In this document: positions 1 through 39,713 of the stretch, piece by piece | Layout: every line of letters begins with the position of its first letter | How positions within the stretch are numbered: position 1 is the first letter of the stretch | DNA from: Eubacteriales bacterium | Lineage (GTDB): Bacteria > Bacillota > Clostridia > Oscillospirales > SIG627 | Assembly (NCBI GenBank): GCA_045536965.1 | Contig: JAZSON010000029.1 | Location: forward strand, 72,052 to 136,051 | Direction: 5' to 3' | DNA length: 64,000 nucleotides | The notes under the pieces: model-generated | Database searches by the model: none | What the model was told of the DNA's origin: nothing | The model's input: the letters and a program-made list of their open reading frames with translations, nothing else | Position numbers and translations under genes: made by a program

Positions 1-1
1 C

Positions 2-11354: not shown

Positions 11355-14300
11355 ATGAACACAAACAAACGTATTCTCTCTCTGCTTCTTTCGGTGCTTA
11401 TGCTTCTGTCTTTGCTCCGGCAGGACTGTTTGTATTCGCAGAAGGTGCCATGAATGCAGGAAATACTGTCTATGTCGATCAGACAAACGGCTCTGATGAA
11501 ACAGGCGACGGTACTGAGGCAAAGCCTGTTCAAACCATTGAAAAAGCAGTTGAACTGCTCGAAGCAGGAGATAAAACTGCAGATGGTTACGTTTATCTCT
11601 TAGATGATTACTCCGCCGTTTACAACGGAGAAAAATCCGGCGCCGAAGCCTTGACAAGCGTTTTGCCCGCCCATACCCGCCACATTATTATTACGGGTAA
11701 CGTGGGAAATAAACCCACTTGGGAATTGAGATTTAAACCGTTGATTTACAAGGACTTTTTTACACCTACGGCTAATAGACACGGCGCTGCCAGTTTGTAT
11801 CCTCTTACCAACGGCCCGTCACCTTTGATGCCGTTACGGTTCATTCGACGGTAGATAAGGAAAACTATATCCAATTCCCGACGACGACCACCTATACCAT
11901 TCCGGCAGATCATCCGAATGAAAAATATAGAGCCTATGCCGGTAAAACCATTACCTTTGAAGAAGGTTCCTATCTTTATATAGATTACAACATCACCGAT
12001 AACGGTGACGGCACCCTTACACTCACCCCGAATGGTGATGCGAAATACTATCTCCTGATCAACACTTTGCGTTGGATCCCCAAGGGATATTTCGCCACCA
12101 CCGCGAATAACACTCTCACTTGGGATACTGCGGCTGAAACCGACCGTCAGAACAGTGCTTTCCCGACCACGAAAGGAAATGCAGGTCACTGCCAAGTGGT
12201 TGCTCAAAAATATTTCTATTTTAATGCTCCCACTACCTTGAACGGCACCGGATGGGATTTATGCTACGCTTGCGTAGAGGGTGCAAAAAAAGGTGTTCAA
12301 CCCGAAAGTGAGATCATTCTTACCATCGGTGTAAACTCCGATCTTATCGGCAGATATTTGAATGCTCCCGCCAAAACAGCTCCTGCTTCCACCAAGGTAA
12401 CCTATGTGATCGAGAAACAAGGTTTTAACTGGACGCATACTACCTACAATATTTTTGGTGGCACCAAGACTTCCCCCGAAATCCTTTGTGACTTTGCGGT
12501 TGTTGTCAAAGCATCGGGTGCAAAATTTGCCGGCGGTTTGACAGAATCTTCCACCGCGACAGGCAAAGGTACCTACAATCTTGTGATTGACAATCCCTCG
12601 GTTAACTTCAGTGCCGCCGATCAGCTCATGAGCGGCTTTAACTCTTTGCAGTTTACAAACGTTGGTGAAGGCTTTACCTTCGATAACAGGAACCGTTTCA
12701 TACCTTCTCGACAGCGGCACTGTTGCCTACGCGAAGGGCGATGCCGAAGAAGAAATCGTTCTTCCCGAGAGCGAGACCGTTATTGTCGGCAATTCCATCA
12801 CCCTTGCCGCTCCTGCCACTACCACCCTTGCCGATGGCAAAAAATTTATGGGCTGGATGGATAAAGAGGGCAAACTTTACAAGGCAGGGGATGTTTTCGC
12901 GGTGGATGCAGCCGTTACCTTCACCCTGACCGCTGTTTGGGAACTTTGCATCAGCTTTACCACCGGTTATGAAGAAAGCGGCGTTTTCCAAAGCGACATT
13001 GCTGTCGATTTGGGTGAAAAATTCGCACTACCCAATGATCTTCGCGGCACCATCGTCAACGATGGCAAGTATGATCTTGTGTTCTACGGCTGGAATATTG
13101 GCGGCAAGATCCGTTTTGCCGGCGAAACGCTTACCATGGACGGCGCTGACCTTTCCGCCGAAGCCGTTTGGGTTCCCGCTATCTTCGTGGATGGCACCAA
13201 CGGAAATGATGAAGAGGCAGATGGCACGAGAGCGAAGCCTTACCAAACCCTCAATGCTGCCTATAAAGCGTTGGGTGATCTTCTCAGTGACCGCGGTAAT
13301 ACCGATGCGGCAGGCGCGGTTTATCTGTTAAGCGATGCGGCGTTTGCACCCATCGACGATTCTGTTTATTATCGCGAGTCGTCAAGTGTTGTAGCCCTCC
13401 AATCCCTCAATATGCCGATACTCTTTACCGCCGCGACTGCCAATACGGTATGCGAATTCAAAATGACTACGCAAATTTATATCTACTTCAATAACGATAT
13501 CTTATTTGATAACGTTAGCGTAGCCGTGACCTCCGAGTCCTATCCGAACGATACTAACATTCGTATGTATCCCAGTGGTGATTTGTATTTCGGCTTGCAT
13601 GTAAAAACCGAGCAATTTGTTATTGACTGCAATCAATTGATCGAGTTCTCGGCGGATTGCAAAGTGTATAACGGCACATTTAAACAAATCAACATGGGTG
13701 GCGCATCTTCTGTCCGTACCATGAACTTCAATCTCTATTTCGGTAACGGTACGAAAGAATCCACACCGTTTATTGATCCTGTTTTCCCGAATGGTCAAAA
13801 GAATGTCAACTCTCTCATTAACGCCGAATTCCGCTCCGGCACTGTCAATACTCTCGATATCAGAAAAAGCGGTACCGTTGCTGCCAACGATGATAGAAAA
13901 CTCTCGGGCGATCTGATCTGTAAGATTTACAAAGGTATAACTCTTACTAAAATTACAGACGGTGCTCCGATTTATTGTGAACAAACGTACAACAATAAAC
14001 AATACACCGATACTGAACACATGCATGATATGTCGAGAACGATCATTTTCAATGGATTCTGTGGTTCTGTATACTATGGCCATGGCACAGTGACAGGAAG
14101 TGTTGAGTATGATCATGAACTTCCCAACGGTCTGGATGCTATCGCATTTATCAATGGCGCAAACGTTACCTTTACAAACCATGCTCCCCGTATTGCCGCG
14201 CGTGCAAATGGTATCGGTAATGTTTATGTGGATGCTACCTCCACCTACACCGGAAAGGATATCATCCCCGTTTACTATGACCACGAAAATGAAGTCGAAG

Positions 14301-14785
14301 TTGACGGAACACACCTTTCACCCATTGCAGGTACCCTCCACACTTGGAACGGCACCGAATGGACCACCGATGTTTACGGTGCAGCCCTCGGCGCACAAAG
14401 ACGTACCACCGCTCCTTACGGCATCCGCTTTGGATTTGTCGGTTCTACCGCCACCCTTGAAGCCATGTTCGGACAAAAAGTAACCAAGGGAATTCTCCTG
14501 ATTCCCACCGCTCTTTTGAACGAAACCCTGGAACTTGACACCGAAAATGTTCTCAATGTAGAAGCCAAGGTTTCCTTCAGCTTGAGCCAGCCTAACGTCT
14601 TCACCGCTATGCTGATTGACGATTACGACAATTCTTCCGAAAAATGGCTGGAAACTTGGGAAAATGTAGAATTCACCGCCCGCGCATATTTTGAGCTTGC
14701 CGACGGTACCGTGTTCTACTCCGATTCTATCACAAAGAGCATCGCTTCCATCAACCAAGCATTGACCGAGATGTTGCCCGCCTGA
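11355..14785 (+). pseudogene. Cassette A giant secreted protein, disrupted (three frame breaks; lacks the middle module)
   Basis: AAAGGAG SD and ATG at 11355 encode signal peptide MNTNKRILSLLLSVLMLLSLL. The frame is lost at about 11417-11420, where the paralogs read LLPAG. There is a second shift at about 11815-11821, at the NGP(L)T motif. An out-of-frame internal deletion junction lies at about 12685-12692. The ORF-track pieces 11321-11854, 12067-12864 and 12662-14785 each align to the paralogs in turn. Confidence 0.75.
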
Positions 14786-14800
14786 TAGGGAGGAAGAGTC

Positions 14801-14920
14801 ATGAAAAACGTATATGAATCCCCCGCAATGATTTCTCTGGAATTTCCGGAAGAAATCATGTCCATCAGTTTCGGCGATAACTATGGTTCATTGCTTCCCG
14901 GTTGGGGAGAACCGAACTGA
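14801..14920 (+). CDS. Conserved 39-aa acidic small ORF, copy 1 (MKNVYESPAMISLEFPEEIMSISFGDNYGSLLPGWGEPN)
   Basis: GGGAGGA SD. The ATG lies 15 nt after the upstream stop (TGA then TAG). A terminator follows 22 nt downstream. Compared with copy 2 there are 6 synonymous and 2 non-synonymous codon differences. Confidence 0.7.
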   Translation: MKNVYESPAMISLEFPEEIMSISFGDNYGSLLPGWGEPN

Positions 14921-14942
14921 ATCATTTGCGCATACTATTTAC

Positions 14943-14981
14943 GCGAAGCACGCTTCTTATTGAAGTGTGCTTCGCTTTTTT
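14943..14981 (+). terminator. Rho-independent terminator of cassette A
   Basis: Arms gcgaagcac/gtgcttcgc followed by TTTTTT. Confidence 0.75.
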
Positions 14982-15096: not shown

Positions 15097-15125
15097 TTGA
15101 CATGGCGATGATTTTGTGATAAACT
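15097..15125 (+). promoter_or_regulatory. Cassette B promoter
   Basis: TTGACA (15097-15102), 17-nt spacer ending TGa, TAAACT (15120-15125). Confidence 0.55.
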
Positions 15126-15182: not shown

Positions 15183-18100
15183 ATGAAAAACACAAACAAG
15201 CGCATTCTCTCTTTTGTGTTGTCTGCTCTTATGCTCATCTCTCTGCTTCCCGCAGGTATGATGGCAGGCGCGTTGGATGCTATGAACGCAACCAATACGA
15301 TCTATGTAGATCAGGCAAAAGGTTCGGATACCAACACAGGTACCGAATCGTCTCCCGTTAAAACCATCGAAAAGGCTGTTGAACTGCTTGAAGCGGGCGA
15401 CAAAACCGCCGATGGTTACATCTACCTCAAAAGTGATTATTCCCAACTGTATGACGGTAGAGGCCAGCGTAACTTTTTAGACATTATGCCCACCCATACC
15501 CGTAATATCATCGTAACGGGTAATGCAAATAAAAAGCCGACCTGGGAAATGATCATTGCTTGCAGTGCGAGCACCTCTGCCGCTTATTTGAAAGAGCGTC
15601 ATTTGGCCGCCTCGGGCTATATTCGCAACAATGGTCCTTTGACCCTTGATGTGGTTAAGGTTAATGTAAAGACCGACCCCAACAACCTCACCACTATTGC
15701 TTTGAAAATGGAATATGAATTCCCTGCAGGTCATGAATTTGCAGGCAAGAAGCTTGCTTTCAAGGGTGGCGATTATCTTTACAAAAAGTATGATCTTGCC
15801 ATCGATCCCAATAACGCTGCGTATGTGATCGATGTTACCGATCGTACCAAAGAAAATGAAGTATATCCCGTCCGTATGAACGATCTGCGTTGGACCACCA
15901 ATGCTAAATTCGTTGCAACCGAAAACTGCGAAGTTACCTACGAAGATCAGGCGGATAATTCTCGTTTGGAGGCGGATATCCCCACCACTTCGAGTCATGT
16001 CAAAGAGATCAACTACATCTATTTCCAACCCTACTCCAATGCCTCCTTGTACGGCGGCTTCTTTGGTGACGGCTGGGTTGTAGGTGCAAGCGCCACCTAT
16101 GATGATGAAGTGATTCTGACTATCGGCAGCAAGGATGCGTTGAAAATCCTCCGCGCTCCCAGTGCAGATGTTCCTGCCACCACCAAGGTTTCCTATGTTT
16201 TCGAAACCCCCGATGTTTTTAACATCCCCTTCTATACCTCCGAGAAAACGAACGCACCTGCCCTGAAATGTGAATTCAGCATGGTTTTGAAAACGACAGG
16301 TGTAACCTATGGTACGGGCGCAAGCGATATTGCCGAGTTGTACACTTCTTATGTAGACGGCTTCGGTACCTACAACATCGTATTTGATAACCCTGCCGAA
16401 ACATTTGACCAGAATCTTTTGTTGCCCGGTTACCATTCCCTTTATTTCAAGGGAATCGGCGGTTCCCTTTCCTTTGATTTTGAATCTCTTCCCCAAGTTG
16501 GTTACAAAGTCATTCGTATCGACGAAGGCGATATTCTCGATCTTCAGGGAACTACCGTTCAAAGAGAATTCATGCTTGACATCGTCAAAGCAGGAAAAAG
16601 CTTTGAAAACGATTCTTTCCCCGTAATTTATGCCGATGATGAATCGGTTCTCGACTTCATCACCCTGACCGAAGAAGCCGAAGCGCTCGGTTCTTTGGTA
16701 TATTCCGAAGATGACTATGCTGTTTACTACACCTTGGATCGCGGCAATGTTGTCTATGAAAAAGGCGATACCGACGAAGATGTTGAAATGCCCGCCGACT
16801 CCGAAACCGTTTTTGCAGGCGAAAACATCATCGTCAGCGCGCCCGTAAATAGCACTCTGGAAAACGGAAAGAAATTCTCCGGTTGGAAAGATGCGAAGGG
16901 CAACATCTATCAGCCCGGCGACAGCTATATGATCAACTCTAACGGCAGTGTAACCCTCACCGCAACTTGGGGCTTCCCCCTCTCGTTTGTGACAGGTTAT
17001 GAAGATGCCGCAACTCCCGTCACCAGAGAAGACATGTTCTTCGTTCCCGGTGACAGAGTGGCACTTCCCAATGATCTCCGCGCTTCCGATGAGGATAAAG
17101 ACGGTGTATACACCCTCAAAACCATCACCGATGGCGGCAAGGACTATGTCTTCTACGGCTGGACCATTGATGGCAAGTTCTATCATGCAGGCGAGACCAT
17201 TAAAACGGGTACTACTGCCATCACCGCAACCGCTGTTTGGATTCCCGCCATCTATGTCAAACCCTCCTATGCGGGCAACGACTCCGACGGTTCCAAAGCC
17301 AAACCCTACAACTCGATTCTGAAAGCACAGATGGCCGTTCGCGCTCTCTTTGGTGCCGATGAAGGAAATGAAATCCCCGCCGCTTCCATCGTTATGATGG
17401 AAAACACCATTTGGAACTGGAGCTACACCGAGACCGTTCCCGGTCATGTCGGTGGTGTTCAAGACGATGGCTATACCTATTATGAAAAGAATAGTGCAAA
17501 CGCCAACCATCCCAAACTGAATACTCTCGGCGGATCGGTTCTTTACACGGCAATTTCCAGCGACATCGAAGTTTTGATGTATCAGTACGAATCCCTGTAC
17601 TTCTACATTGCTGACGACTTCATGCTTGACAACTTGACCTACCTTGTCAGCGCCACCCACTCCATTTCCCGTCTTTACTTCACGACCACGGGCAGAGTCC
17701 TTTATATGGGCCCGACCGTGAAATGCTTGAAGAAAAACAACAATACCCAAAACGTAGATACCTTGTATGGTTTGCCTCTCGGTTCTTACAGCGCAACCGT
17801 TCATCAGCAGTATTCCTACATTCTGTTTGATGTCAACTTACCCGATATCACAGCGCATATCTATGGCGGTGAGTACACAGGTCTTTATATGCTCTATGCC
17901 AACGCAGGTACCAACACCTCTTATATCGGTGCTCCCGGTACTACTGGTCCGACCATTGCATATACCGCTCTCGGTAACACCAACAACCATCCTTCCGCTG
18001 TTTGGGATTACTACCAATATTCGGGCAATGTAAAGGAATTTCGTTTCGGTGTTCTTTCTACCGCTAACAATATTTTCCGTGGTACATGGAATCTCCATTT

Positions 18101-20396
18101 CTATGGCAACGCCAAATTCACCCTCAAAGACTGGAATGCTGCGTATGCAGGCAATGTAACCGATAGAAAAGCCAACCAGCAGACCATCAATCTTTATTTT
18201 GAAGATTGCGATGCCGAAGTGACCACAAACCATCAAAACACACCCCACCAAGCTACAATTGCTACCTCCAAAGGCGCCACCCTCGGCGATGACTATTACA
18301 ATTCTTCTGTCAGCGGTGCCAACACTATCTATTATTACAGTGCAACCAATCCCAGTGGTATTTCCTCTATTTCCTTGAAGAACAGTAATGTCGAATTCGT
18401 TAACCCCTTGTATGTCAGATCTGGCGCAGGCGTCAGCTTCTCGCAGGATGAAAACTCCTCTTATGTCGGTAACATCTACGCTACCAAAGATACCTTTGTC
18501 AAGGGTGAAGGCAATGTTTACACCCCCGTCGAAGTCACCCAAGTGCTTTCGGGCATGGGCGTGAAAGGCCAAGCGATCTCTACTTGCTTTAACGGCGAAA
18601 AATGGGTAAGAACCTATGCCTTTAACTATGAAACGGGCTATGATAGCGTGAAAATCGATGGCTCCTTCGGCGGCTTTGCAGGCAACCGTATCGTTCTGTC
18701 CGATGCACTTCGCGGCCAAGTAGTCACCGATGCAGGCAAAGAACTCACCTTCTTCGGTTGGAATATCGATGGCAAATTCTACGATGCAGGCGACGGCTAT
18801 GTGCTGGGTGAATCCGATGCAACTGCCACGGCAGTTTGGGTTCCCGCCATCTTCGTGGATCCCACCTATGCAGGCGGCAACTCCGATGGTTCCAAAGCAA
18901 AACCCTTCGTGAAAGTTGCAGATGCGTATGCAGCCCTGAAAACCCTCCTTGCTTCTTCGGATGCTGTGGGCGGCGCTGTATATCTCCTTTCCGATGCTGT
19001 GATGGATGCAGAACCCGACACCTCTTTTGCTCCTGTTTCCAACATTCCCAGCCTCGAGGATGCAGGTAAACCCGTTCTCTTTACCGCAGCGAATAAAACC
19101 ATTAAGTTCACCACCGATAACGAAAGCTACTCCAACACTCTCCATTTCCTCGGTTCTGTGATGTTTGATAACCTCACCCTCCGTGTGAAGGGTACCACCT
19201 TTATCAGACTTACGCCCGCCAAGGACGCTTACTTTGGCCCGAATTTTGCTTTTGAACAACCCAGCGGTTACAGAGTCGTTTATCTGGATGGTCAAAACCA
19301 AAATGTTGAAGAAGTAACCTACAAAATTTATAACGGCACCTTCTCTCTCGTTTGCTTTGGTTCCAACTTTACCAAAACCACCTATGCCAAGCAAAACGTC
19401 TATGTGGGTACAGGTGAATCTACCTCTGCTCCCACAGTGTCCAACCTCTTTGCAAACACGATTGCCACATTCGTCAATGCAAAAGTTGAATTGCGTTCGG
19501 GCACCGTGACCAACGCCATCCTCGGCACAAACTACGGCAACGCTGCTTACAGCAATGCACAGCCTTTCGGCGAATGGATTTACGTTGTCTACAACGGCAT
19601 GAACATCGGCAACATCCGCGATGCTTATTCCGATGGCGCAAATCAAATCCCCGCAACGACAACTTATTGCGCTAACCTTACGAGAACCCTGATCTTCGAT
19701 GGTTACAAAGGCAACATTGCATATAACCACTTTGCCAATACCAACGAAACCGTTGTCAACGGTATCAATAACGTTTCCTTTATAGGTGGCGCACAAGTCA
19801 ACTTTACAACTAACGATGTAGTTGTTACCTCCGGCTCTGTCTACGTCGAAGAAGGCTCTTCCTACACCGGCAAAGCCATCAAAGGCAGCTGCATCCATGA
19901 AGGAAACGAAGTGCAGGTTGCTTTGACTCCCGCAAATGGACTCAACACTTGGAACAGCGATAAGGATCACACCTGGACCACCGATGTTTACGGTGCAGCC
20001 CTCGGCGCACAGATCCGTGTCGAAGCTCCTTACGGTATTCGTTTCGGCTTCAATGGTTCCACCACCGCTCTCGAAGCTATGCTCGGCCAAGCCGTTGCTG
20101 AAAAAGGCGTCCTGATCATCCGTGATTCCATGTTGGATGGCGCTTTGACCCTTGACACCGAAAACGTTTTGAAGATTGTCGCAAACAAAGCATACAGCTT
20201 GACCCAGTCTGCTGTCTTCACAGGCGTTTTGGTCGACACCCCCGATGCCGGCGCTTCTTCCAAAGCATGGCTGGAAACCTGGAAAGATGTTGATTTCACC
20301 GCCCGCGCTTACTTCAAACTGGCCGATGGCAGTGTGATCTACTCTAACAGCGATACCAACAGCATTGCGGCTATTTCCGCTTCGTTGGTCGGCTGA
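15183..20396 (+). CDS. Giant secreted multi-module protein (1737 aa): signal peptide, three beta-helix-cap modules separated by InlB-B/Flg_new-like repeats, conserved C-terminal domain
   Basis: AGGAGG SD and signal peptide MKNTNKRILSFVLSALMLISLLPAG. The motif YV(D/K)...G(S/N)D..GS...P(V/Y/F)K(T/S) recurs three times, at about 15298, 17241 and 18841. (F/Y)(Y/F/S)GW..(D/N)GK.Y..G......(T/A)ATA(V/T)W repeats are present. The ORF is uninterrupted. Confidence 0.9.
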   Translation: MKNTNKRILSFVLSALMLISLLPAGMMAGALDAMNATNTIYVDQAKGSDTNTGTESSPVKTIEKAVELLEAGDKTADGYIYLKSDYSQLYDGRGQRNFLDIMPTHTRNIIVTGNANKKPTWEMIIACSASTSAAYLKERHLAASGYIRNNGPLTLDVVKVNVKTDPNNLTTIALKMEYEFPAGHEFAGKKLAFKGGDYLYKKYDLAIDPNNAAYVIDVTDRTKENEVYPVRMNDLRWTTNAKFVATENCEVTYEDQADNSRLEADIPTTSSHVKEINYIYFQPYSNASLYGGFFGDGWVVGASATYDDEVILTIGSKDALKILRAPSADVPATTKVSYVFETPDVFNIPFYTSEKTNAPALKCEFSMVLKTTGVTYGTGASDIAELYTSYVDGFGTYNIVFDNPAETFDQNLLLPGYHSLYFKGIGGSLSFDFESLPQVGYKVIRIDEGDILDLQGTTVQREFMLDIVKAGKSFENDSFPVIYADDESVLDFITLTEEAEALGSLVYSEDDYAVYYTLDRGNVVYEKGDTDEDVEMPADSETVFAGENIIVSAPVNSTLENGKKFSGWKDAKGNIYQPGDSYMINSNGSVTLTATWGFPLSFVTGYEDAATPVTREDMFFVPGDRVALPNDLRASDEDKDGVYTLKTITDGGKDYVFYGWTIDGKFYHAGETIKTGTTAITATAVWIPAIYVKPSYAGNDSDGSKAKPYNSILKAQMAVRALFGADEGNEIPAASIVMMENTIWNWSYTETVPGHVGGVQDDGYTYYEKNSANANHPKLNTLGGSVLYTAISSDIEVLMYQYESLYFYIADDFMLDNLTYLVSATHSISRLYFTTTGRVLYMGPTVKCLKKNNNTQNVDTLYGLPLGSYSATVHQQYSYILFDVNLPDITAHIYGGEYTGLYMLYANAGTNTSYIGAPGTTGPTIAYTALGNTNNHPSAVWDYYQYSGNVKEFRFGVLSTANNIFRGTWNLHFYGNAKFTLKDWNAAYAGNVTDRKANQQTINLYFEDCDAEVTTNHQNTPHQATIATSKGATLGDDYYNSSVSGANTIYYYSATNPSGISSISLKNSNVEFVNPLYVRSGAGVSFSQDENSSYVGNIYATKDTFVKGEGNVYTPVEVTQVLSGMGVKGQAISTCFNGEKWVRTYAFNYETGYDSVKIDGSFGGFAGNRIVLSDALRGQVVTDAGKELTFFGWNIDGKFYDAGDGYVLGESDATATAVWVPAIFVDPTYAGGNSDGSKAKPFVKVADAYAALKTLLASSDAVGGAVYLLSDAVMDAEPDTSFAPVSNIPSLEDAGKPVLFTAANKTIKFTTDNESYSNTLHFLGSVMFDNLTLRVKGTTFIRLTPAKDAYFGPNFAFEQPSGYRVVYLDGQNQNVEEVTYKIYNGTFSLVCFGSNFTKTTYAKQNVYVGTGESTSAPTVSNLFANTIATFVNAKVELRSGTVTNAILGTNYGNAAYSNAQPFGEWIYVVYNGMNIGNIRDAYSDGANQIPATTTYCANLTRTLIFDGYKGNIAYNHFANTNETVVNGINNVSFIGGAQVNFTTNDVVVTSGSVYVEEGSSYTGKAIKGSCIHEGNEVQVALTPANGLNTWNSDKDHTWTTDVYGAALGAQIRVEAPYGIRFGFNGSTTALEAMLGQAVAEKGVLIIRDSMLDGALTLDTENVLKIVANKAYSLTQSAVFTGVLVDTPDAGASSKAWLETWKDVDFTARAYFKLADGSVIYSNSDTNSIAAISASLVG

Positions 20397-20411
20397 TAGG
20401 GAGGAGAAATC

Positions 20412-20531
20412 ATGAAAAACGTGTATGAATCTCCCGTAATGATTTCTCTGGAATTTTCGGAAGAAATCATGTCCATCAGTTTCGGTGATAACTATGGTTC
20501 GCTTCTTCCCGGTTGGGGAGAACCAAACTAA
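20412..20531 (+). CDS. Conserved 39-aa acidic small ORF, copy 2 (MKNVYESPVMISLEFSEEIMSISFGDNYGSLLPGWGEPN)
   Basis: GGGAGGAG SD. The ATG lies 15 nt after the TGA-TAG double stop of the giant gene. A terminator follows 17 nt downstream. Confidence 0.75.
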   Translation: MKNVYESPVMISLEFSEEIMSISFGDNYGSLLPGWGEPN

Positions 20532-20548
20532 ACCAAACCTAAAAGCCG

Positions 20549-20585
20549 TGAGGCGCACTTAGTTAAAAGTGCGCCTCATTTTTTT
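20549..20585 (+). terminator. Rho-independent terminator of cassette B
   Basis: Arms tgaggcgcac/gtgcgcctca followed by a 7-T run. Confidence 0.85.
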
Positions 20586-20781
20586 GTAAAAGATTTGCCG
20601 GTGCACGCCAACCATACAAAATCCTTTATGCAAAACCTACCCCAACCTCGTAAGGGAGGATACCATCTTCCCGATAATTTTGCATTTTACCCATTTGCAT
20701 CTTTGAAAAAAAGTTCTGCCATGAATCTTCAATTATGCAATTTATATAATTATGGGTGCTGTAATTTGATAAGTTTATCCA

Positions 20782-20810
20782 TTGACATCATGTGTATTGA
20801 ATGTTAAAAT
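20782..20810 (+). promoter_or_regulatory. Cassette C promoter
   Basis: TTGACA (20782-20787), 17-nt spacer ending TGt, TAAAAT (20805-20810). Confidence 0.6.
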
Positions 20811-20869: not shown

Positions 20870-23800
20870 ATGAAACACACAAACATGCGCATTCTCTCAT
20901 TTGTGTTGTCTGCTCTCATGCTTCTTTCTTTGCTTCCTGCGGGTATTCTTGCGGGTGCAGCCGATGCCATGAATGCAGAAAACACCATCTATGTGGATCA
21001 GGCCAAAGGCTCTGATGCTAATGATGGCTCCAAATCCAATCCCGTGAAAACCGTCGTAAAGGCTGTTGAACTGCTCGAGGCAGGCGACGTGACCGCCGAT
21101 GGTTACATCTATCTTGTCGGTGATTACACCGCTCGATATGTAGGTAAAAACCTTGCGGGAACTGCGTTTGGTTCCGTTATCGATTATCTCCCCGTGCACA
21201 CCCGTCATATCATTGTGACCGGTGACCCTTCCGACAAACCGACCTGGACTCTCCAGATTGCAGTTCCGGCGGGTTCGGGTTACCCCGATCGTCATGCACC
21301 GGGTTCTGCCTATTTGCGCACCAACGGACCTTTGACCTTAGATGCGATTGCGGTGTATGTTACAAATGATAAAACCAATCTCACCGTGTTTCCCCAAGAT
21401 CTTGAATACTCTATTACCGGCGGTACATTCGCGGGTAAAAAATTCAAGCTCAAAGCCGGTGAATATCTTTATAAGATCTATGATTTTGCCGAGGATCCTC
21501 AAAACAGCGGTTATGTAATCGATGTTACCGACCGTTCGTCCGATCCCGAAAAACAAATTAAATTCCCCGTGCGTATCAATGACTTCCGCTGGATTATCAA
21601 TGGTACTTTTACCAGTACGGCGAATTTCTCCTTGAGTTATGACAACGCGATCGATCCCGATCGTGCTGCTGCTACTTTGGTGACCAATACCACCGATAAC
21701 AGCAAAAATATCACTCAGATCTATACCATCCCGTTTGCCTCTGCCTCGTTTTACGGTGGCAACTGGGGTAGCTTGATGGTTTATTCCACCTCGTCTTACG
21801 GCGCTTCCTATTCCACCGATGATCTTGTTGTGACCATTGGTGAAAAATCGGGTATTGGTTCTGTTTATTATCCCAACAGCACCGTTCCCGCAACCGTTAA
21901 AAAGGTGACCTATGTCATCGAAGAAGCAGGCAGAAAGATCAGCAATCCTTTTTACCTCGCTACCACTGAACCTATCATCAACTGTGACTTTTATTTGCAC
22001 ATCAAAGCTTCCGGTGTGATTATGGGGGCTGGCGGTTTGACCGAAAAGTCTTATATTTCGGGCAAAGGAACCTACAATCTTATCATCGAAAATCCCGGTG
22101 AAAATTTTGACTCGTCCCTCTTGCTCTCGGGCTATCATTCCCTCTATTTCAAGGGAATCGGTGGCGCCCTTTCCATGGATTTTGAATCTCTTCCCGCAGT
22201 CGGTTACGAAATTATTCGTATCGATGAAGGCGATACCTTGGATTTGCAGGGCACCGTTTTAGAAAATAAATTCATCCTTGACATTGTCAAGGCAGGTGAA
22301 AACTTTGAAAATGACTCTTTTGAAGTCATTTATGCCGACGATGAATCTGTTCTCGACTTTATCACCCTCACCGAAGAAGCCGATGCGCTCGGATCTTTGG
22401 TATATTCCGAAGATGACTATGCCGTTTACTACACCTTGGATCGCGGCAATGTTGTCTATGAAAAAGGCGATACCGAGGACGAAATCAAAATGCCCGAAGC
22501 CTCCGAAACCGTTTTGGGCGGCGAAACCATTGTTTTAGGTGCGCCCGCCAAGACTGTTCTTGAAAATGGCAAGAAGTTCTCCGGCTGGAAAGATGAATTG
22601 GGCAGAATTTATCAAGCAGGCGATACCTTTACCATCAAAGTCAACGGCACCGAAACCCTGACCGCAACCTGGGGTATTTCCATGTCCTTTGTTACAGGTT
22701 ATGAGTCGGCAGGTGTTGTCAGACAAGATTTGTTCTATGTTCCCGGCGAAAGAGTAACACTTCCCTCCGATCTTCGTGCAGATGATCAGGATGGCGACGG
22801 TGTCTCCACCTTGAAGATCGTCACCGACGGCGGTAAGGACTATGTGTTCTACGGTTGGACCATCGATGGTAAGTTTTACCATGCGGGCGAGACCATCCAA
22901 ACCTCCGATACCCTCATCACCGCAACCGCTGTTTGGGTTCCCGCCATTTATGTCAAACCCACCTACGCAGGCGGCGATTCGGACGGTTCTAAGGCAAAAC
23001 CTTATACCTCCATTTTGGCAGCCCAAATTGCCATGAACAAGCTTTTTGGTGAAACCACCGAAGAGGATGTTCCGGGCGGCTCCATTGTTATGCTTGAAGA
23101 TACTGTTTGGAGCTTTAGCTATTTGCAAAACATCGGCGACACCCCCAACCCCGGCTATGTTGGCGGCGCGCAAGCCGATGGAAATGTCTATTATACCAAT
23201 ACCGGTGCTCAGGTTCTCATGAAGGCGCTCAAGAGAAATGTTCTTTACACGGCCATTTCCAATGATGTAAGAGTTCTGTTCTACCAGTATGAAGCAATTT
23301 ATTTCTACTCTGAAGGCGATTTCTTCATCGATAACCTTTCCTACTTCACCCGTTGCTATCATTCCATTCCGCGTTTGTATCTCCAATCACCCAATAAAGT
23401 TCTTTATATTGGTCCGACTGTCAAGACCGCATCGAGTTCTTCCGCTGCATCCTTTACAGCCGATGATTATCTCTATGCAACCCATTCCTCCGATGCTGTG
23501 AATACAGGCAAAGCCCCTGTTTATTCCAAATTCTTGTTTGATATGAATAAAGCGGGTTCTACCGCTTACATTCTCGGTGGTGAGCACGTCGGTCTTTACG
23601 GTGTTTACGGTACCAGTGGTGTTTATACCTCCTACATTGGCGCTCCCAATACCGATGGCCCGACACTTGATTACATCGCACTCGGTAACACAAACTCCAA
23701 GACAACCACCGATACTTGGAACTATTACCAGTATTCGGGCAATGTGAAAGAAATCCGTTTTGGTGCTCTTTCTAACTACGACTATATGTTCCGCGGTACT

Positions 23801-26113
23801 TGGAATCTTCATTTCTATGGAAATGCAAACATCAAACTTGATGATGCTGTAGCTAGCTATTATGGCAATACGTCCACAAGAAATCCCAACGCACAGATCA
23901 TCAACCTCTTCTTTGAAGATTGCAAGGCTACGGTAACGACCCTGCATGATAACTTGCCCCACCAAGCTACAATCGCTACCTCCAACGGCGCAACCCTCGG
24001 CGACGATTATTATAAATCGGTTGTCAGTGGCAATAACACCATCTATTATTACGACGCTACTGTTCCGAGTGGTGTAAATTCGATTTCCTTGAAGAACAGC
24101 CAGGTCAATTTCTCCACCCCCTTGTATGTCAAGTCGGGCGCAGATGTTACCTATGCTCAGGATGAAAAATCTTCCTATACCGGTAGTATCTACGCCACCA
24201 AAGACACCTTTGTCAGGGGTGAAGGCAATCGTTATACCGCTGTTGAAGTCACCGATGTCCTTGCAGGCATGGGTGTCGAAGGAAAAGTCATTACTGCTTG
24301 CTTTGATGGTGATAAGTGGAAGCAATCCTTCAGCATGAGCTATCAAACCGGTTATGACTCTGTTAAATTTGATGTCACCGCAGGCGGTCTTGCAGGTACT
24401 CGTCTGGTATTGTCCGATGCACTCCGTGGCCAAGTGGTTACTGATGCAGGCAAAGAACTGACCTTCTACGGTTGGAATATCAATGGCAAGTTCTACGATG
24501 CGGGCGATGCTTATGTACTGGGTGAATCCGATGTCATTGCCGCGGCAGTTTGGGTTCCCGCCATCTTTGTCGATCCCGCTTATGCTGGCGGCGATTCCGA
24601 TGGTAGCCGAACCAAACCTTTCGTAAGCGCTTTGGATGCCTATGCAGCTGCTGTTGCCGCTGAAGGTGATGCCATCGCAGTTGTTCTTCTCGCAAATGCC
24701 ACTATGACGCAAACCGCAGAATCTTCCTTTGACATGGTAGGCACAGCAACGGGCTTTGCCGATGCAGGCAAGAGAGTGCTTCTTACCGCTGTTTCAAGCG
24801 ATATCACTTTGACGATTGACAGCGGCAGCAGCTCCTCTTATGTCAGAATTTTCAACTCTATTATGTTTGATAACCTGACTCTCCATGCGACTACTTCTTC
24901 GGCGGCCTACATCCGACTTCTTCCCGCCAAGGATATTTACTTTGGCCCGAACTTTATTTTCGCCCAACCCACCGGCTTGAAGTATTTCGGTCTCGATGGT
25001 ATGTATCAGGAAGCTTCGGAAGTGATCTATAAGATCTACAACGGCGCCGTCAACTTTGTTTACCTCGGTACTTCCATTGTTTCTACCGAACAAACCAAGG
25101 CCAATGCATTGATTGGTACAGGCGAAGAAACTTCTAAGCCTGAAATCGACCTTGTATCCGTCAATACACTTTCGGCTGTCGTTTCTGCCAAGGTTGATTT
25201 CCGTTCGGGTATAATTAAGAGAGGAATGTTAGGTGCCACCAAGGGTGGTGCGGGCGATACCTCTTACGCCACCAAGCAACCTTCGGGCGATTTCATCTTC
25301 ACCGTTTATAGCGGTGTAACCGAATTGTGTCTTATGGATTCCTGGACAGGCGTCAACCCCGGACTTTCCTCTTATTGCGCCAACCTTTCCAGAACCCTTG
25401 TTTTTGACGGTTATGTCGGCAATGTTAAATACATCCACTACAGTGCAGCAAATGGTATTTTTGCAAACGGTATCGATAACATTGCGTTTATCAATGGTGC
25501 AAAAGTTAACTTTACCAACAATGATGTAGTCGTAGCCGCCCGTGCAAACGGTGTTGGCAGTGTCTATGTCGAAAGCGGTTCTTCTTACAGTGGTAAGGTC
25601 ATCAAAGGTGCCTACATCAACGAAAGTGCCGAAGCTTTTGTCGACTTTACCCCCGTTGTCGGTAAGATCAACGCGTTCAATGGTACTGCATGGACAACCG
25701 ATACTTACGGTGCAGCCCTCGGCGCACAGATCCGCGTAGAAGCCCCCTATGGTATCCGCTTTGGCTTTGTCGGTTCTAACGCCGCCCTCGAAGCTATGCT
25801 CGGTCAGGCTGTTGTCGAAAAAGGTGTGTTGGTTATCCGCAGCTCGCTGTTGGAAGGCAAACTCACTCTTGATACAGAAAATGTTCTCAAGATCGTTGCT
25901 GAAAAAGCCCATTCCTTGAAACAATACAACTGCTTCAACGGTGTTTTGGTCGATACTGCCGACGCAGGTGCTTCTTCGGAAGCTTGGTTGGAAGCATGGG
26001 AGAATGTTGACTTTACCGCTTGCGCCTACTTTACGTTGGCCGACGGCACTGTTCTTTACTCCAATAGCACCCAAAACAACATCGCAGGTGTATACGCTTC
26101 GCTGGTCGGTTGA
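20870..26113 (+). CDS. Giant secreted multi-module protein (1747 aa), paralog of 15183-20396
   Basis: AGGAGG at 20857-20862, then the ATG at 20870, gives signal peptide MKHTNMRILSFVLSALMLLSLLPAG. The ORF-track start at 20801 lies inside the promoter. The module order matches cassette B. Confidence 0.9.
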   Translation: MKHTNMRILSFVLSALMLLSLLPAGILAGAADAMNAENTIYVDQAKGSDANDGSKSNPVKTVVKAVELLEAGDVTADGYIYLVGDYTARYVGKNLAGTAFGSVIDYLPVHTRHIIVTGDPSDKPTWTLQIAVPAGSGYPDRHAPGSAYLRTNGPLTLDAIAVYVTNDKTNLTVFPQDLEYSITGGTFAGKKFKLKAGEYLYKIYDFAEDPQNSGYVIDVTDRSSDPEKQIKFPVRINDFRWIINGTFTSTANFSLSYDNAIDPDRAAATLVTNTTDNSKNITQIYTIPFASASFYGGNWGSLMVYSTSSYGASYSTDDLVVTIGEKSGIGSVYYPNSTVPATVKKVTYVIEEAGRKISNPFYLATTEPIINCDFYLHIKASGVIMGAGGLTEKSYISGKGTYNLIIENPGENFDSSLLLSGYHSLYFKGIGGALSMDFESLPAVGYEIIRIDEGDTLDLQGTVLENKFILDIVKAGENFENDSFEVIYADDESVLDFITLTEEADALGSLVYSEDDYAVYYTLDRGNVVYEKGDTEDEIKMPEASETVLGGETIVLGAPAKTVLENGKKFSGWKDELGRIYQAGDTFTIKVNGTETLTATWGISMSFVTGYESAGVVRQDLFYVPGERVTLPSDLRADDQDGDGVSTLKIVTDGGKDYVFYGWTIDGKFYHAGETIQTSDTLITATAVWVPAIYVKPTYAGGDSDGSKAKPYTSILAAQIAMNKLFGETTEEDVPGGSIVMLEDTVWSFSYLQNIGDTPNPGYVGGAQADGNVYYTNTGAQVLMKALKRNVLYTAISNDVRVLFYQYEAIYFYSEGDFFIDNLSYFTRCYHSIPRLYLQSPNKVLYIGPTVKTASSSSAASFTADDYLYATHSSDAVNTGKAPVYSKFLFDMNKAGSTAYILGGEHVGLYGVYGTSGVYTSYIGAPNTDGPTLDYIALGNTNSKTTTDTWNYYQYSGNVKEIRFGALSNYDYMFRGTWNLHFYGNANIKLDDAVASYYGNTSTRNPNAQIINLFFEDCKATVTTLHDNLPHQATIATSNGATLGDDYYKSVVSGNNTIYYYDATVPSGVNSISLKNSQVNFSTPLYVKSGADVTYAQDEKSSYTGSIYATKDTFVRGEGNRYTAVEVTDVLAGMGVEGKVITACFDGDKWKQSFSMSYQTGYDSVKFDVTAGGLAGTRLVLSDALRGQVVTDAGKELTFYGWNINGKFYDAGDAYVLGESDVIAAAVWVPAIFVDPAYAGGDSDGSRTKPFVSALDAYAAAVAAEGDAIAVVLLANATMTQTAESSFDMVGTATGFADAGKRVLLTAVSSDITLTIDSGSSSSYVRIFNSIMFDNLTLHATTSSAAYIRLLPAKDIYFGPNFIFAQPTGLKYFGLDGMYQEASEVIYKIYNGAVNFVYLGTSIVSTEQTKANALIGTGEETSKPEIDLVSVNTLSAVVSAKVDFRSGIIKRGMLGATKGGAGDTSYATKQPSGDFIFTVYSGVTELCLMDSWTGVNPGLSSYCANLSRTLVFDGYVGNVKYIHYSAANGIFANGIDNIAFINGAKVNFTNNDVVVAARANGVGSVYVESGSSYSGKVIKGAYINESAEAFVDFTPVVGKINAFNGTAWTTDTYGAALGAQIRVEAPYGIRFGFVGSNAALEAMLGQAVVEKGVLVIRSSLLEGKLTLDTENVLKIVAEKAHSLKQYNCFNGVLVDTADAGASSEAWLEAWENVDFTACAYFTLADGTVLYSNSTQNNIAGVYASLVG

Positions 26114-26128
26114 TAGGGAGGAGAAATC

Positions 26129-26248
26129 ATGAAAAACGTGTATGAATCTCCCGTAATGATTTCTCTGGAATTTTCGGAAGAAATCATGTCCATCAGTTTC
26201 GGTGATAACTATGGTTCGCTTCTTCCCGGTTGGGGAGAGCCGAGCTAA
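26129..26248 (+). CDS. Conserved 39-aa acidic small ORF, copy 3 (MKNVYESPVMISLEFSEEIMSISFGDNYGSLLPGWGEPS)
   Basis: Same SD, 15-nt spacing and terminator as copy 2. It is nucleotide-identical to copy 2 over its first 110 nt. Confidence 0.75.
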   Translation: MKNVYESPVMISLEFSEEIMSISFGDNYGSLLPGWGEPS

Positions 26249-26265
26249 ACAAAACCTAAAAGCTG

Positions 26266-26300
26266 TGAGGCGCACTTATTAAAAAGTGCGCCTCATTTTT
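26266..26300 (+). terminator. Rho-independent terminator of cassette C
   Basis: Arms tgaggcgcac/gtgcgcctca followed by TTTTT. Confidence 0.85.
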
Positions 26301-31615: not shown

Positions 31616-31640
31616 AGTTTTGTTGGCCTTATAACAATTT

Positions 31641-31675
31641 GCGGGCGTGTTCGATGAACACGCCCGCGTATTTTT
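31641..31675 (+). terminator. Rho-independent terminator ending the array
   Basis: Arms gcgggcgtgttc/gaacacgcccgc, then a T-run. Confidence 0.8.
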
Positions 31676-31676
31676 A

Positions 31677-31706
31677 TAAAAAAACCGCGCGAATTTCTTC
31701 GCGCGG
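31677..31706 (-). terminator. Rho-independent terminator for the minus-strand gene 31721-32911
   Basis: Hairpin ccgcgcgaa/ttcgcgcgg. On the minus strand it is followed by a T-run (the plus-strand A-run at 31677-31684). Confidence 0.7.
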
Positions 31707-31720
31707 TTTTGGTGTTTTGT

Positions 31721-39689: not shown

Positions 39690-39713
39690 ATTATTTATCT
39701 CCTGCGTGAAAAC

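What the first reader, a model, noticed from the sequence alone, without database searches (positions are those of the whole stretch)
14801..14920. The divergent sORF copy shows a coding-type substitution pattern
I compared copy 1 (14801-14920) with copy 2 codon by codon. Six codons differ synonymously: gta/gtg, tcc/tct, ggc/ggt, tca/tcg, ttg/ctt and ccg/cca. Only two change the amino acid: A9V and P16S. The stop also changes from TGA to TAA at the same position. Length, SD and the 15-nt spacing are all preserved, even though the upstream giant gene in this cassette is a pseudogene. This pattern is expected for a translated peptide under purifying selection. It is not expected for a 3' UTR element.
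Basis: seen in the sequence. Interest (0 to 1): 0.55.

Follow-up and report, generated by a model that had tools for sequence, protein, structure and literature searches.

The report
Small peptide gene behind giant genes
A 39-codon open reading frame that follows each giant secreted-protein gene in a tandem array is a real, conserved protein-coding gene of a previously unnamed small-protein family, but what the peptide does is still unknown.

Summary
Copy 1 (14801-14920) differs from copy 2 (20412-20531) at six synonymous codons, by two replacements (A9V, P16S) and by TGA versus TAA. Length, Shine-Dalgarno sequence and the 15-nt gap are unchanged.

I recovered 17 more copies from ENA metagenome contigs. 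This gives 20 copies and 16 distinct DNA sequences. All have 39 codons, no indels and the stop at the same position. Changes by codon position are 22/11/75, with 70 synonymous against 38 replacement changes (P=2.5e-19) and dN/dS 0.12. The other frames carry stops or have dN/dS above 1. There is no RNA covariation and no Rfam hit. The coding reading is supported.

Two corrections are needed:
- Both replacements and the TGA stop arose on copy 1's own lineage, so continued selection on that copy inside its pseudogene cassette is not shown.
- Within the window the sORF is 87-100% identical between cassettes while the flanks are 40-80% identical, which implies gene conversion.

The peptide is acidic, has no signal peptide and matches no Pfam or NCBIfam model. 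A related sequence ends a paralogous secreted protein (2897-2971). My best guess, at low confidence, is a translationally coupled accessory peptide derived from a detached C-terminal tail.

The parts
14801..14920 (+). sORF copy 1 (39 codons + TGA): MKNVYESPAMISLEFPEEIMSISFGDNYGSLLPGWGEPN
   Evidence: A9, P16 and the TGA stop are unique derived states of this copy.
14788..14793 (+). Shine-Dalgarno GGGAGG of copy 1, inside the 15-nt gap after the giant gene's TGA (14783-14785), which is followed by an in-frame TAG
14943..14981 (+). intrinsic terminator after copy 1 (14-bp stem plus T run)
20412..20531 (+). sORF copy 2 (39 codons + TAA)
20399..20404 (+). Shine-Dalgarno GGGAGG of copy 2
20548..20586 (+). 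intrinsic terminator after copy 2 (13-bp stem plus T run)
26129..26248 (+). sORF copy 3 (39 codons + TAA; N39S)
26116..26121 (+). Shine-Dalgarno GGGAGG of copy 3
26265..26300 (+). intrinsic terminator after copy 3 (13-bp stem)
11355..14785 (+). giant-gene paralog of cassette 1, a pseudogene (frameshifts and an internal deletion of about 340 aa); its promoter has a degenerate -10 box (TATAGG)
15183..20396 (+). intact giant secreted-protein gene of cassette 2 (1737 aa, Sec-type signal peptide); promoter at 15097-15125
20870..26113 (+). intact giant secreted-protein gene of cassette 3 (about 1747 aa from the MKHTN start); promoter at 20782-20810
26431..31615 (+). giant-gene paralog of cassette 4, a pseudogene (in-frame stop near 27060, frameshift near 30040). 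It has no sORF; the terminator at 31640-31668 follows directly.
2897..2971 (+). C-terminal tail (...NAKQSPVMMDHGYGDNYNSTPDGWG; four more residues, SLVS, then the stop at 2984-2986) of a further paralog that runs off the left edge of the window. It resembles the sORF peptide and may be a fused version of it.
   Evidence: The match is weak by profile (E 0.24).

Best explanation
The element is a real small protein-coding gene. It encodes a 39-residue, strongly acidic peptide with no cysteine and no signal peptide, and it belongs to a small-protein family that has no name yet.

Gene organisation. Each copy is the last cistron of a two-gene transcription unit: a sigma-A-type promoter, a giant secreted-protein gene of about 1740 aa, a 15-nt gap that holds a GGAGG Shine-Dalgarno sequence, the sORF, and an intrinsic terminator.

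What is shown:
- The coding status and purifying selection on the peptide sequence.
- Co-transcription by anatomy (promoter and terminator positions), not by RNA data.
- The strict pairing of the sORF with the giant gene's 3' end in every copy recovered.
- Concerted evolution of the copies within the window.

What is inferred:
- Ribosomes that terminate on the giant gene can re-initiate 15 nt downstream, so the peptide would be made in step with, and next to, the newly finished giant protein.
- The peptide has no stable fold of its own and probably acts by binding a partner. The most likely partner is the giant beta-helix protein or its handling machinery, with the peptide serving as a private accessory or chaperone-like factor.
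- The gene arose as a C-terminal tail that became detached. It lies in frame with the giant gene, and a paralog that lacks a downstream sORF ends in a related tail.

The confidence value given here refers to the first statement: a translated small-protein gene of a new family, functionally tied to the giant-gene cassettes. I rate the specific binding-partner or detached-tail mechanism at only about 0.3.
For: Coding status:
- 20 copies and 16 distinct sequences, all 39 codons, no indel, stop at the same place (TAA in 15 distinct sequences, TGA in 1). ATG and Shine-Dalgarno sequence are always present.
- Variable columns by codon position are 13/6/27. dN/dS is 0.118 in this frame. The other two + frames have dN/dS above 1.4 and 42-49 stops.
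- Parsimony on a neighbour-joining tree gives 22/11/75 changes by codon position and 70 synonymous against 38 replacement changes. The neutral synonymous fraction is 0.239 (P=2.5e-19).
- The antisense ORF has lost its start or gained stops in relatives.
- No covarying pairs and no Rfam match.
- More distant peptides of 38-59 aa keep Y5, E6, P8, F15, M20, G25, N27, P33 and W35.

Operon anatomy:
- Strong terminators sit right after each sORF, and TTGACA-17-TGnTAAACT/TAAAAT promoters sit before cassettes 2 and 3.
- In every metagenome locus where upstream sequence is present, the upstream gene is the C-terminus of a giant paralog and the gap is 15 nt. In L009 the contig starts only 21 nt before the ATG and only the giant gene's stop codon is visible. 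The downstream gene is often the signal-peptide end of the next paralog.

Constraint and concerted evolution:
- sORF dN/dS is 0.12, against 0.23 for the adjoining 60 codons of the giant gene.
- Within the window, pS is 0.08-0.25 in the sORF against 0.67-0.73 in those 60 codons.
- The sORF is an identity island of 87-100% in flanks of 40-80%.

Peptide properties:
- pI about 4, net charge -5.5, GRAVY about -0.1.
- AlphaFold2 with a 12-sequence alignment gives no fold: pLDDT 66, one 5-residue helix.

Fused relative:
- The tail of the left-edge paralog scores 59 against the peptide, compared with 20.5 +/- 4.3 for shuffled tails (0 of 5000 reach it). tblastn E is 4.7e-4 within the window.
- That paralog contains the giant family's C-terminal domain at window 8-160 and has no downstream sORF.
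Against: There is no direct evidence of translation and none of any interaction.
- The fused model of the giant C-terminal domain plus the peptide was uninformative: pLDDT 50 overall and 21-35 over the peptide, from an alignment of 5 sequences.
- The profile HMM of the family scores the left-edge tail at only E 0.24, so homology of tail and peptide is not secure.
- A cytoplasmic peptide cannot accompany a Sec substrate through the translocon. A binding role would therefore have to act before export, or the peptide would need an unknown export route.
- sORF sequences group by genome rather than by the type of the upstream C-terminal domain. That argues against pair-specific co-evolution with the neighbouring giant protein.
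- Being in frame has a one-in-three chance, and the constant 15-nt gap could simply reflect recent common ancestry.
- The genomic context of the distant homologs could not be retrieved, so pairing with giant genes is shown only for the close clade.
Confidence: 0.85

Rival explanations
1. The peptide is a precursor of a modified or exported peptide (a RiPP or pheromone-like signal). The N-terminal MKxxYExPx-hydrophobic segment would be a leader bound by a recognition domain encoded elsewhere in the genome. The invariant ...GDN...LPGW end would be the part that is matured.
For: - Residues 1-12 of two distant homologs (P0016, P0017) give weak hits to the NCBIfam lasso-peptide model NF033528 (E 0.006 and 0.053; 16.5 and 13.5 bits against a cut-off of 33).
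- Y5, P8 and a hydrophobic residue at position 10 are kept across the family.
- The Trp near the C-terminus is invariant.
- Longer homologs repeat an IP[DGN]W motif and carry a DSDGDGIPDW stretch that looks like a calcium-binding loop typical of extracellular proteins.
- The gene is present in several copies.
- The peptide has no fold of its own.
Against: - The 64-kb window holds no radical-SAM enzyme, lasso B or C enzyme, other maturase, peptidase-ABC exporter or RRE-type domain (Pfam).
- The window peptides themselves give no NCBIfam or Pfam hit.
- The window peptides contain no Thr, so a Thr at -2 is impossible. No register gives a Gly/Ala/Ser/Cys at core position 1 together with Asp/Glu at positions 7-9.
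- Conservation runs along the whole peptide rather than splitting into a conserved leader and a variable core.
- The peptide is tied strictly to giant-gene 3' ends, not to a biosynthetic cluster.
Confidence: 0.15
2. The peptide is an immunity or inhibitor protein for an activity carried by the giant secreted protein. This would parallel colicin immunity proteins or staphostatins, which are encoded directly downstream of the gene whose product they neutralise.
For: - It is a small acidic protein gene immediately downstream of, co-transcribed with, and probably translationally coupled to, a secreted multi-domain protein with beta-helix-like modules.
- The tandem cassettes, with pseudogenised copies that keep the small gene, recall orphan toxin-immunity modules.
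Against: - No toxin or enzyme domain is recognised in the giant proteins (Pfam, NCBIfam, PDB sequence search).
- The C-terminal domains of the paralogs differ much more than the peptides do, and the peptides do not track them. Matched toxin-immunity pairs show the opposite.
- 39 residues with no predicted fold is unusually small for an immunity protein.
Confidence: 0.1
3. Only the act of translating the sORF matters, for example to keep ribosomes on the 3' end of a 5-kb mRNA for stability or to modulate the terminator. Alternatively the region works as an RNA element, and the peptide sequence itself has no function.
For: - Within the window the sORF is also unusually conserved at synonymous sites: pS 0.08-0.25 against about 0.7 in the flank.
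- It sits between a long gene and its terminator.
Against: - Across genomes the synonymous sites vary freely (pS 0.48) while replacements are rare (pN 0.088, dN/dS 0.12). Selection therefore acts on the amino-acid sequence.
- Distant homologs share residues but little DNA.
- The RNAalifold consensus is weak (-7.9 kcal/mol) with 0 compensatory pairs.
- No Rfam hit.
Confidence: 0.05

Closest known systems
Lasso-peptide precursor leaders (YxxPxL recognition motif; NCBIfam NF033528 lasso_cyano)
   Same: Both are short, unstructured peptides without a signal peptide. They share the start M-K-x-x-Y-x-x-P-x-hydrophobic. Residues 1-12 of two family members give weak model hits.
   Different: The scores are half the curated cut-off, and the window's own copies give no hit. 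The peptide has no Thr at -2, no core with an acidic residue at positions 7-9, and no B or C maturation genes in 64 kb. The gene follows a giant surface-protein gene rather than sitting in a biosynthetic cluster.
Small immunity or inhibitor genes encoded directly downstream of secreted toxins or enzymes (colicin immunity proteins, staphostatins; polymorphic toxin cassettes, PMC3482391)
   Same: A small acidic product. The gene lies a few bases after the stop of a large secreted-protein gene, in the same transcription unit. The cassettes are arranged in tandem and include degenerate copies.
   Different: The peptide is only 39 aa and has no predicted fold. It is nearly invariant between cassettes whose neighbouring C-terminal domains differ. 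No toxin or enzyme domain was identified in the giant proteins.
Split genes, where a domain or tail is fused in one paralog and free-standing in another ('Rosetta stone' logic)
   Same: The sORF lies in frame with the giant gene, 15 nt after its stop. A paralog with no downstream sORF ends in a related sequence (SPVM...YGDNY...GWG).
   Different: The similarity is short and not significant with the family profile. The fused tail follows two extra beta-helix modules rather than the shared C-terminal domain.
ComX-type pheromone precursors of Bacillus (recalled from memory, not tested)
   Same: Both are acidic peptides without a signal peptide. Both have an invariant Trp a few residues from the C-terminus (...QWGD in ComX, ...PGWGD/E here).
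   Different: There is no adjacent comQ-like prenyltransferase and no two-component system. The length and the rest of the sequence differ. No model or alignment supports a relationship.

Membership tests
Translated small protein-coding gene | Open frame of constant length, with start, ribosome-binding site and stop kept in all homologs | tested here: met
   20 copies and 16 distinct sequences. All have 39 codons, no indel, ATG plus GGAGG, and the stop at the same codon.
Translated small protein-coding gene | Excess of synonymous and third-position change in this frame only | tested here: met
   dN/dS is 0.118, against more than 1.4 in the other + frames. Changes by codon position are 22/11/75. 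There are 70 synonymous and 38 replacement changes (P=2.5e-19). The antisense ORF is broken in relatives.
Translated small protein-coding gene | Direct detection of the product (ribosome profiling, mass spectrometry) | not testable with these tools
   No expression data are available for this organism.
Structured RNA or 3' UTR element | Conserved secondary structure supported by compensatory changes, or a match to a curated RNA family | tested here: not met
   RNAalifold gives -7.9 kcal/mol and 0 of 18 pairs with changes on both sides. No Rfam match lies in or next to the sORF at E<=1.
Lasso peptide precursor | Leader with the YxxPxL motif that scores above the family threshold | tested here: inconclusive
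   Y5-x-x-P8-x-M/I/L10 is present. NF033528 hits only P0016 and P0017, at 16.5 and 13.5 bits against a cut-off of 33, and only over residues 1-12. The window peptides give no hit.
Lasso peptide precursor | Thr at leader position -2, and a core that starts with G/A/S/C and has Asp/Glu at position 7-9 | tested here: not met
   Read from the sequences. The window peptides contain no Thr, and no register satisfies the core rule.
Lasso peptide precursor or RiPP in general | Maturation enzymes (RRE protein, protease, cyclase, radical-SAM enzyme and so on) encoded next to the precursor | tested here: not met
   Pfam scans of the long ORFs (150 aa or more) of the 64-kb window find housekeeping and surface-protein genes only.
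Toxin-immunity (polymorphic toxin) cassette | A variable C-terminal toxin domain matched by an equally variable downstream immunity protein | tested here: not met
   The peptides are 95-97% identical between window cassettes, whereas the adjoining 60 codons have pN 0.15-0.29. No toxin domain is found.
Sec-exported signalling propeptide (Phr/RRNPP type) | N-terminal signal peptide with a hydrophobic core | tested here: not met
   Net charge -5.5 and GRAVY about -0.1. No hydrophobic N-terminal stretch is visible in the sequence.

The most novel reading that the evidence does not exclude
The peptide is a free-standing former C-terminal tail of a rare family of giant beta-helix surface proteins. 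It is made by re-initiation right after each giant protein and re-associates with it, or is exported by a route that does not use a signal peptide. That would be a split-protein arrangement kept uniform across cassettes by gene conversion. An alternative novel reading is that it founds a new class of YxxP-leader peptides (signal or RiPP) whose genes ride on surface-protein operons instead of on biosynthetic clusters.
Probability: 0.2. Interest if true: 0.6.

Novelty: new member of a known kind. Interest (0 to 1): 0.4.

Why it matters
Small proteins under 50 residues are routinely missed by genome annotation. None of the three window peptides is in the 15-billion-protein collection as an exact sequence, and the family has no Pfam or NCBIfam model.

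This case has unusually clean comparative evidence that such a gene is real. It also has a fixed genomic partner, the 3' end of a giant secreted-protein gene, which gives a concrete handle for experiments on how very large surface proteins are made or handled in gut Clostridia.

It is also a compact example of concerted evolution. A 120-bp gene is kept nearly identical between cassettes whose large genes have diverged or decayed.

Tried and rejected
- Genome and metagenome scans. The context of the distant homologs P0016-P0023 therefore could not be retrieved. The last contig look-up, for P0023, returned nothing.
- Other collections. Viral contigs, plasmids, PDB sequences, PHROGs and PADLOC gave no match to the peptide.
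- Giant C-terminal domain. A search with the 300-aa C-terminal domain found only the window's own fourth cassette (P0027) and one Logan fragment (P0028). Neither has a fused tail.
- AlphaFold2. The model of the giant C-terminal domain joined to the peptide was too uncertain to read (pLDDT 50). The peptide alone gave no fold.
- Antisense ORF (14716-14865, minus strand). Rejected, because its start or frame is lost in relatives. Its low apparent dN/dS (0.21) is the expected mirror effect of the frame in which third codon positions coincide.
- Stop-codon read-through that would fuse the peptide to the giant protein. Considered because the sORF is in frame. Rejected as the main route: most copies have two consecutive stops (TGA TAG), the rest have TAA, and all keep their own Shine-Dalgarno sequence and ATG.
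- The 'SAYSDNQLLPGG' motif at the end of the first beta-helix module of the left-edge protein. It does not align with the tail of the second module, so I dropped it.
- Two hits of the profile search, P0019 and P0020, are repetitive sequences and were discarded.
- Literature searches for the motif strings found nothing relevant.

Full report
**What is there**

The window holds three copies of a 39-codon ORF: 14801-14920, 20412-20531 and 26129-26248, all on the + strand. Each copy starts exactly 15 nt after the stop codon of a very large gene.
- Cassette 1 (11355-14785) is broken by frameshifts and lacks about 340 aa.
- Cassette 2 (15183-20396) is intact and encodes 1737 aa.
- Cassette 3 (20870-26113) is intact.
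- Cassette 4 (26431-31615) has an in-frame stop and a frameshift, and has no sORF.

The 15-nt gap reads TGA TAG GGA GGA ... ATG. It therefore contains a GGGAGG Shine-Dalgarno sequence that ends 7 nt before the ATG, and the sORF lies in the same frame as the giant gene. A strong hairpin with a T run follows each sORF within about 25 nt (14943-14975, 20548-20579, 26265-26296). All four cassettes keep a TTGACA -35 box. The -10 box is TGnTAAACT or TGnTAAAAT before the two intact genes, but TATAGG and TACACC before the two pseudogenes. By anatomy, each cassette is one transcription unit: promoter, giant gene, sORF, terminator.

**Check of the observation**

For this single pair, Nei-Gojobori counting gives 6 synonymous and 3 replacement differences. 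The double change TTG/CTT is averaged over both paths. The binomial P is 0.0036.

A protein search found 39-aa relatives in ENA metagenome assemblies. The cluster members and their contigs gave 17 further loci. Together with the window this makes 20 copies and 16 distinct DNA sequences.
- All have 39 codons, no indel and the stop at the same codon. The stop is TAA in 15 distinct sequences and TGA only in window copy 1.
- All have an ATG preceded by GGGAGG or AAAGGAG, and all have the 15-nt gap.
- Variable columns by codon position are 13, 6 and 27 of 39. Pairwise dN/dS is 0.118 in the sORF frame. It is 1.5 and 2.6 in the other two + frames, which also carry 42-49 stops.
- On a neighbour-joining tree with parsimony reconstruction there are 22/11/75 changes by codon position, and 70 synonymous against 38 replacement changes. 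The neutral expectation for the synonymous fraction is 0.239, giving P=2.5e-19.
- The one antisense frame with a low ratio (0.21) is the frame whose third positions coincide with those of the sense frame. The antisense ORF seen in the window has lost its start codon or gained stops in seven of the thirteen relatives examined.
- RNAalifold finds only a weak consensus (-7.9 kcal/mol) with no compensatory pair. Rfam has no match there.

This is a protein-coding gene.

**Two corrections to the interpretation**

First, I polarised the differences between copy 1 and copy 2 with the 13 non-window sequences. Both replacements (A9, P16) and the TGA stop are states found only in copy 1. Most of the synonymous differences are ambiguous or lie on the lineage of copies 2 and 3. 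On copy 1's own branch the count is about two replacements to one to three synonymous changes, which does not differ from neutrality. Copy 1 is intact, but continued selection on it inside its decayed cassette is not shown, and that cassette's -10 box is degenerate.

Second, within the window the sORF is an island of 87-100% nucleotide identity. The last 400 nt of the giant genes are 40-80% identical, and the sequence beyond the terminator is unalignable. Synonymous divergence is 0.08-0.25 in the sORF against 0.67-0.73 in the adjoining 60 codons. Selection on the peptide cannot lower synonymous divergence, so the copies must be homogenised by gene conversion.

Across all 16 sequences, synonymous divergence is similar in the sORF (0.48) and in the flank (0.57), while dN/dS is 0.12 against 0.23. 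There is therefore no general constraint at the nucleotide level. In line with this, sORF sequences group by lineage and not by the type of the upstream C-terminal domain.

**Context in relatives**

In every metagenome locus that includes upstream sequence, the gene before the sORF is the C-terminus of a giant paralog. In five loci the next gene is the signal-peptide end of another paralog, so the tandem array is conserved. In L009 and L010 the downstream gene is the F420-ligase-like gene that also follows the array in the window (31721-32911, minus strand). In those relatives the last cassette therefore has a sORF, whereas the window's decayed fourth cassette lacks one.

The record names of the contigs suggest gut or rumen metagenome projects. 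This is my inference from the names only. The window itself looks like a spore-forming member of the Clostridia, with GerA, SepF, DivIVA and a sortase, and 46% G+C.

**What the peptide is like**

The sequence is MKNVYESPVMISLEFSEEIMSISFGDNYGSLLPGWGEPN. It has pI about 4 and net charge -5.5. It has no Cys, a single Lys and no hydrophobic N-terminal stretch.
- It matches no Pfam, NCBIfam, PHROG, PADLOC or PDB sequence.
- The exact window sequences are absent from the 15-billion-protein collection.
- A profile search of 1.84 billion representatives found only small proteins, plus two repetitive false positives.
- The distant homologs are 38-59 aa long. They keep Y5, E6, P8, F15, M20, G25, N27, P33 and W35. 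The longer ones add a second IP[DGN]W motif and a DSDGDGIPDW stretch that resembles a calcium-binding loop.
- AlphaFold2 with 12 sequences predicts no fold: pLDDT 66 and a single 5-residue helix.

**Leads on function**

(a) Residues 1-12 of two distant homologs hit the NCBIfam lasso-peptide model weakly, at 16.5 and 13.5 bits against a cut-off of 33. The family keeps Y-x-x-P-x-hydrophobic, the motif that recognition domains of lasso systems bind (this point rests on my knowledge of that family). The other defining features fail. There is no Thr at -2, no core register with an acidic residue at positions 7-9, and no maturation or export genes anywhere in the 64 kb.

(b) The best match to the peptide elsewhere in the window is the extreme C-terminus of the ORF that runs off the left edge (..20-2986): NAKQSPVMMDHGYGDNYNSTPDGWG, followed by SLVS and the stop.
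- tblastn E is 4.7e-4.
- The Smith-Waterman score is 59 against 20.5 +/- 4.3 for shuffled tails, and 0 of 5000 shuffles reach it.
- The family profile gives only E 0.24.

That ORF begins in the window with the C-terminal domain of the giant family (window 8-160, 43% identity). It continues through two beta-helix modules, ends with this tail, and is followed directly by a terminator with no sORF. A fused tail in one paralog and a free, in-frame peptide gene behind the others fits an origin of the sORF as a detached C-terminal tail. The evidence for this is thin.

(c) The giant family itself is very rare. The 300-aa C-terminal domain finds only the window's own fourth cassette and one other fragment among 5.8 billion clusters.

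**Most likely mechanism**

The following points are shown:
- It is a coding gene under purifying selection.
- It is always the promoter-distal cistron behind a giant secreted-protein gene.
- It has its own ribosome-binding site 15 nt after the upstream stop.
- It is homogenised between cassettes.

The following points are inferred:
- Terminating ribosomes can re-initiate, so peptide output follows giant-protein output.
- The peptide is unstructured alone and acts by binding. Its partner is most probably the giant protein before export, or the machinery that handles it.

I put about 0.85 on 'a translated small protein of a new family tied to these cassettes' and about 0.3 on the binding or detached-tail mechanism. 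The rivals are a RiPP or pheromone precursor matured elsewhere (0.15), an immunity or inhibitor protein (0.10), and translation-only or RNA function (0.05).

**Novelty and score**

The kind of thing, a small accessory protein gene co-transcribed with a large gene, is familiar. The family is new and unannotated, and its fixed pairing with giant surface-protein genes is unusual. The finding is a solid confirmation with two corrections, but no function has been established. Interest 0.4.

Noticed in passing
window 1-2986 (+), tail at 2897-2971: A fifth paralog runs off the left edge of the window. It contains the giant family's C-terminal domain (window 8-160) but does not stop there. It continues through two beta-helix modules (Pfam Beta_helix, DUF4957) and ends in a tail that resembles the sORF peptide. 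A terminator follows, with no sORF.
   Followed up: partly
window 11200-31700: The tandem array holds four giant-gene cassettes, of which only two are intact. The two pseudogene cassettes (1 and 4) also have -10 boxes that lack the final T (TATAGG, TACACC), whereas the intact ones have TGnTAAACT or TGnTAAAAT. Promoter and coding sequence appear to have decayed together.
   Followed up: partly
window 14786-14925, 20397-20536, 26114-26253: The Shine-Dalgarno sequence plus the sORF form an island of 87-100% identity between cassettes whose flanks are 40-80% identical. Synonymous divergence there is 3-9 times lower than in the adjoining giant-gene codons. This suggests short-tract gene conversion confined to about 130 bp.
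   Followed up: partly
window 15183-20396 and 20870-26113: The giant proteins (about 1740 aa, Sec-type signal peptide, three modules that open with a YVD..GSD.N.G...P motif) have no Pfam domain and no recognisable cell-wall anchor. They have almost no homologs in 5.8 billion protein clusters. This is a very rare surface-protein family.
   Followed up: partly
proteins P0018, P0022, P0023 (not in the window): Distant homologs of the peptide are longer. They carry a second IP[DGN]W motif and a DSDGDGIPDW or DDDGDGIPNW stretch that looks like a dockerin- or thrombospondin-type calcium-binding loop. That would be odd for a peptide without a signal sequence. Their genomic context could not be retrieved.
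   Followed up: no
window 31640-31710: Two consecutive strong hairpins lie between the fourth cassette and the convergent F420-ligase-like gene. The first is a bidirectional terminator. They give weak, sub-threshold Rfam hits to unrelated sRNA models, which are probably just terminator-like structure.
   Followed up: no
window 38580-40823 (-): Two tandem paralogous genes of 369 aa each carry a glucuronyl-esterase-like domain (Pfam GCE_fung). This fits a plant-fibre-degrading gut organism.
   Followed up: no
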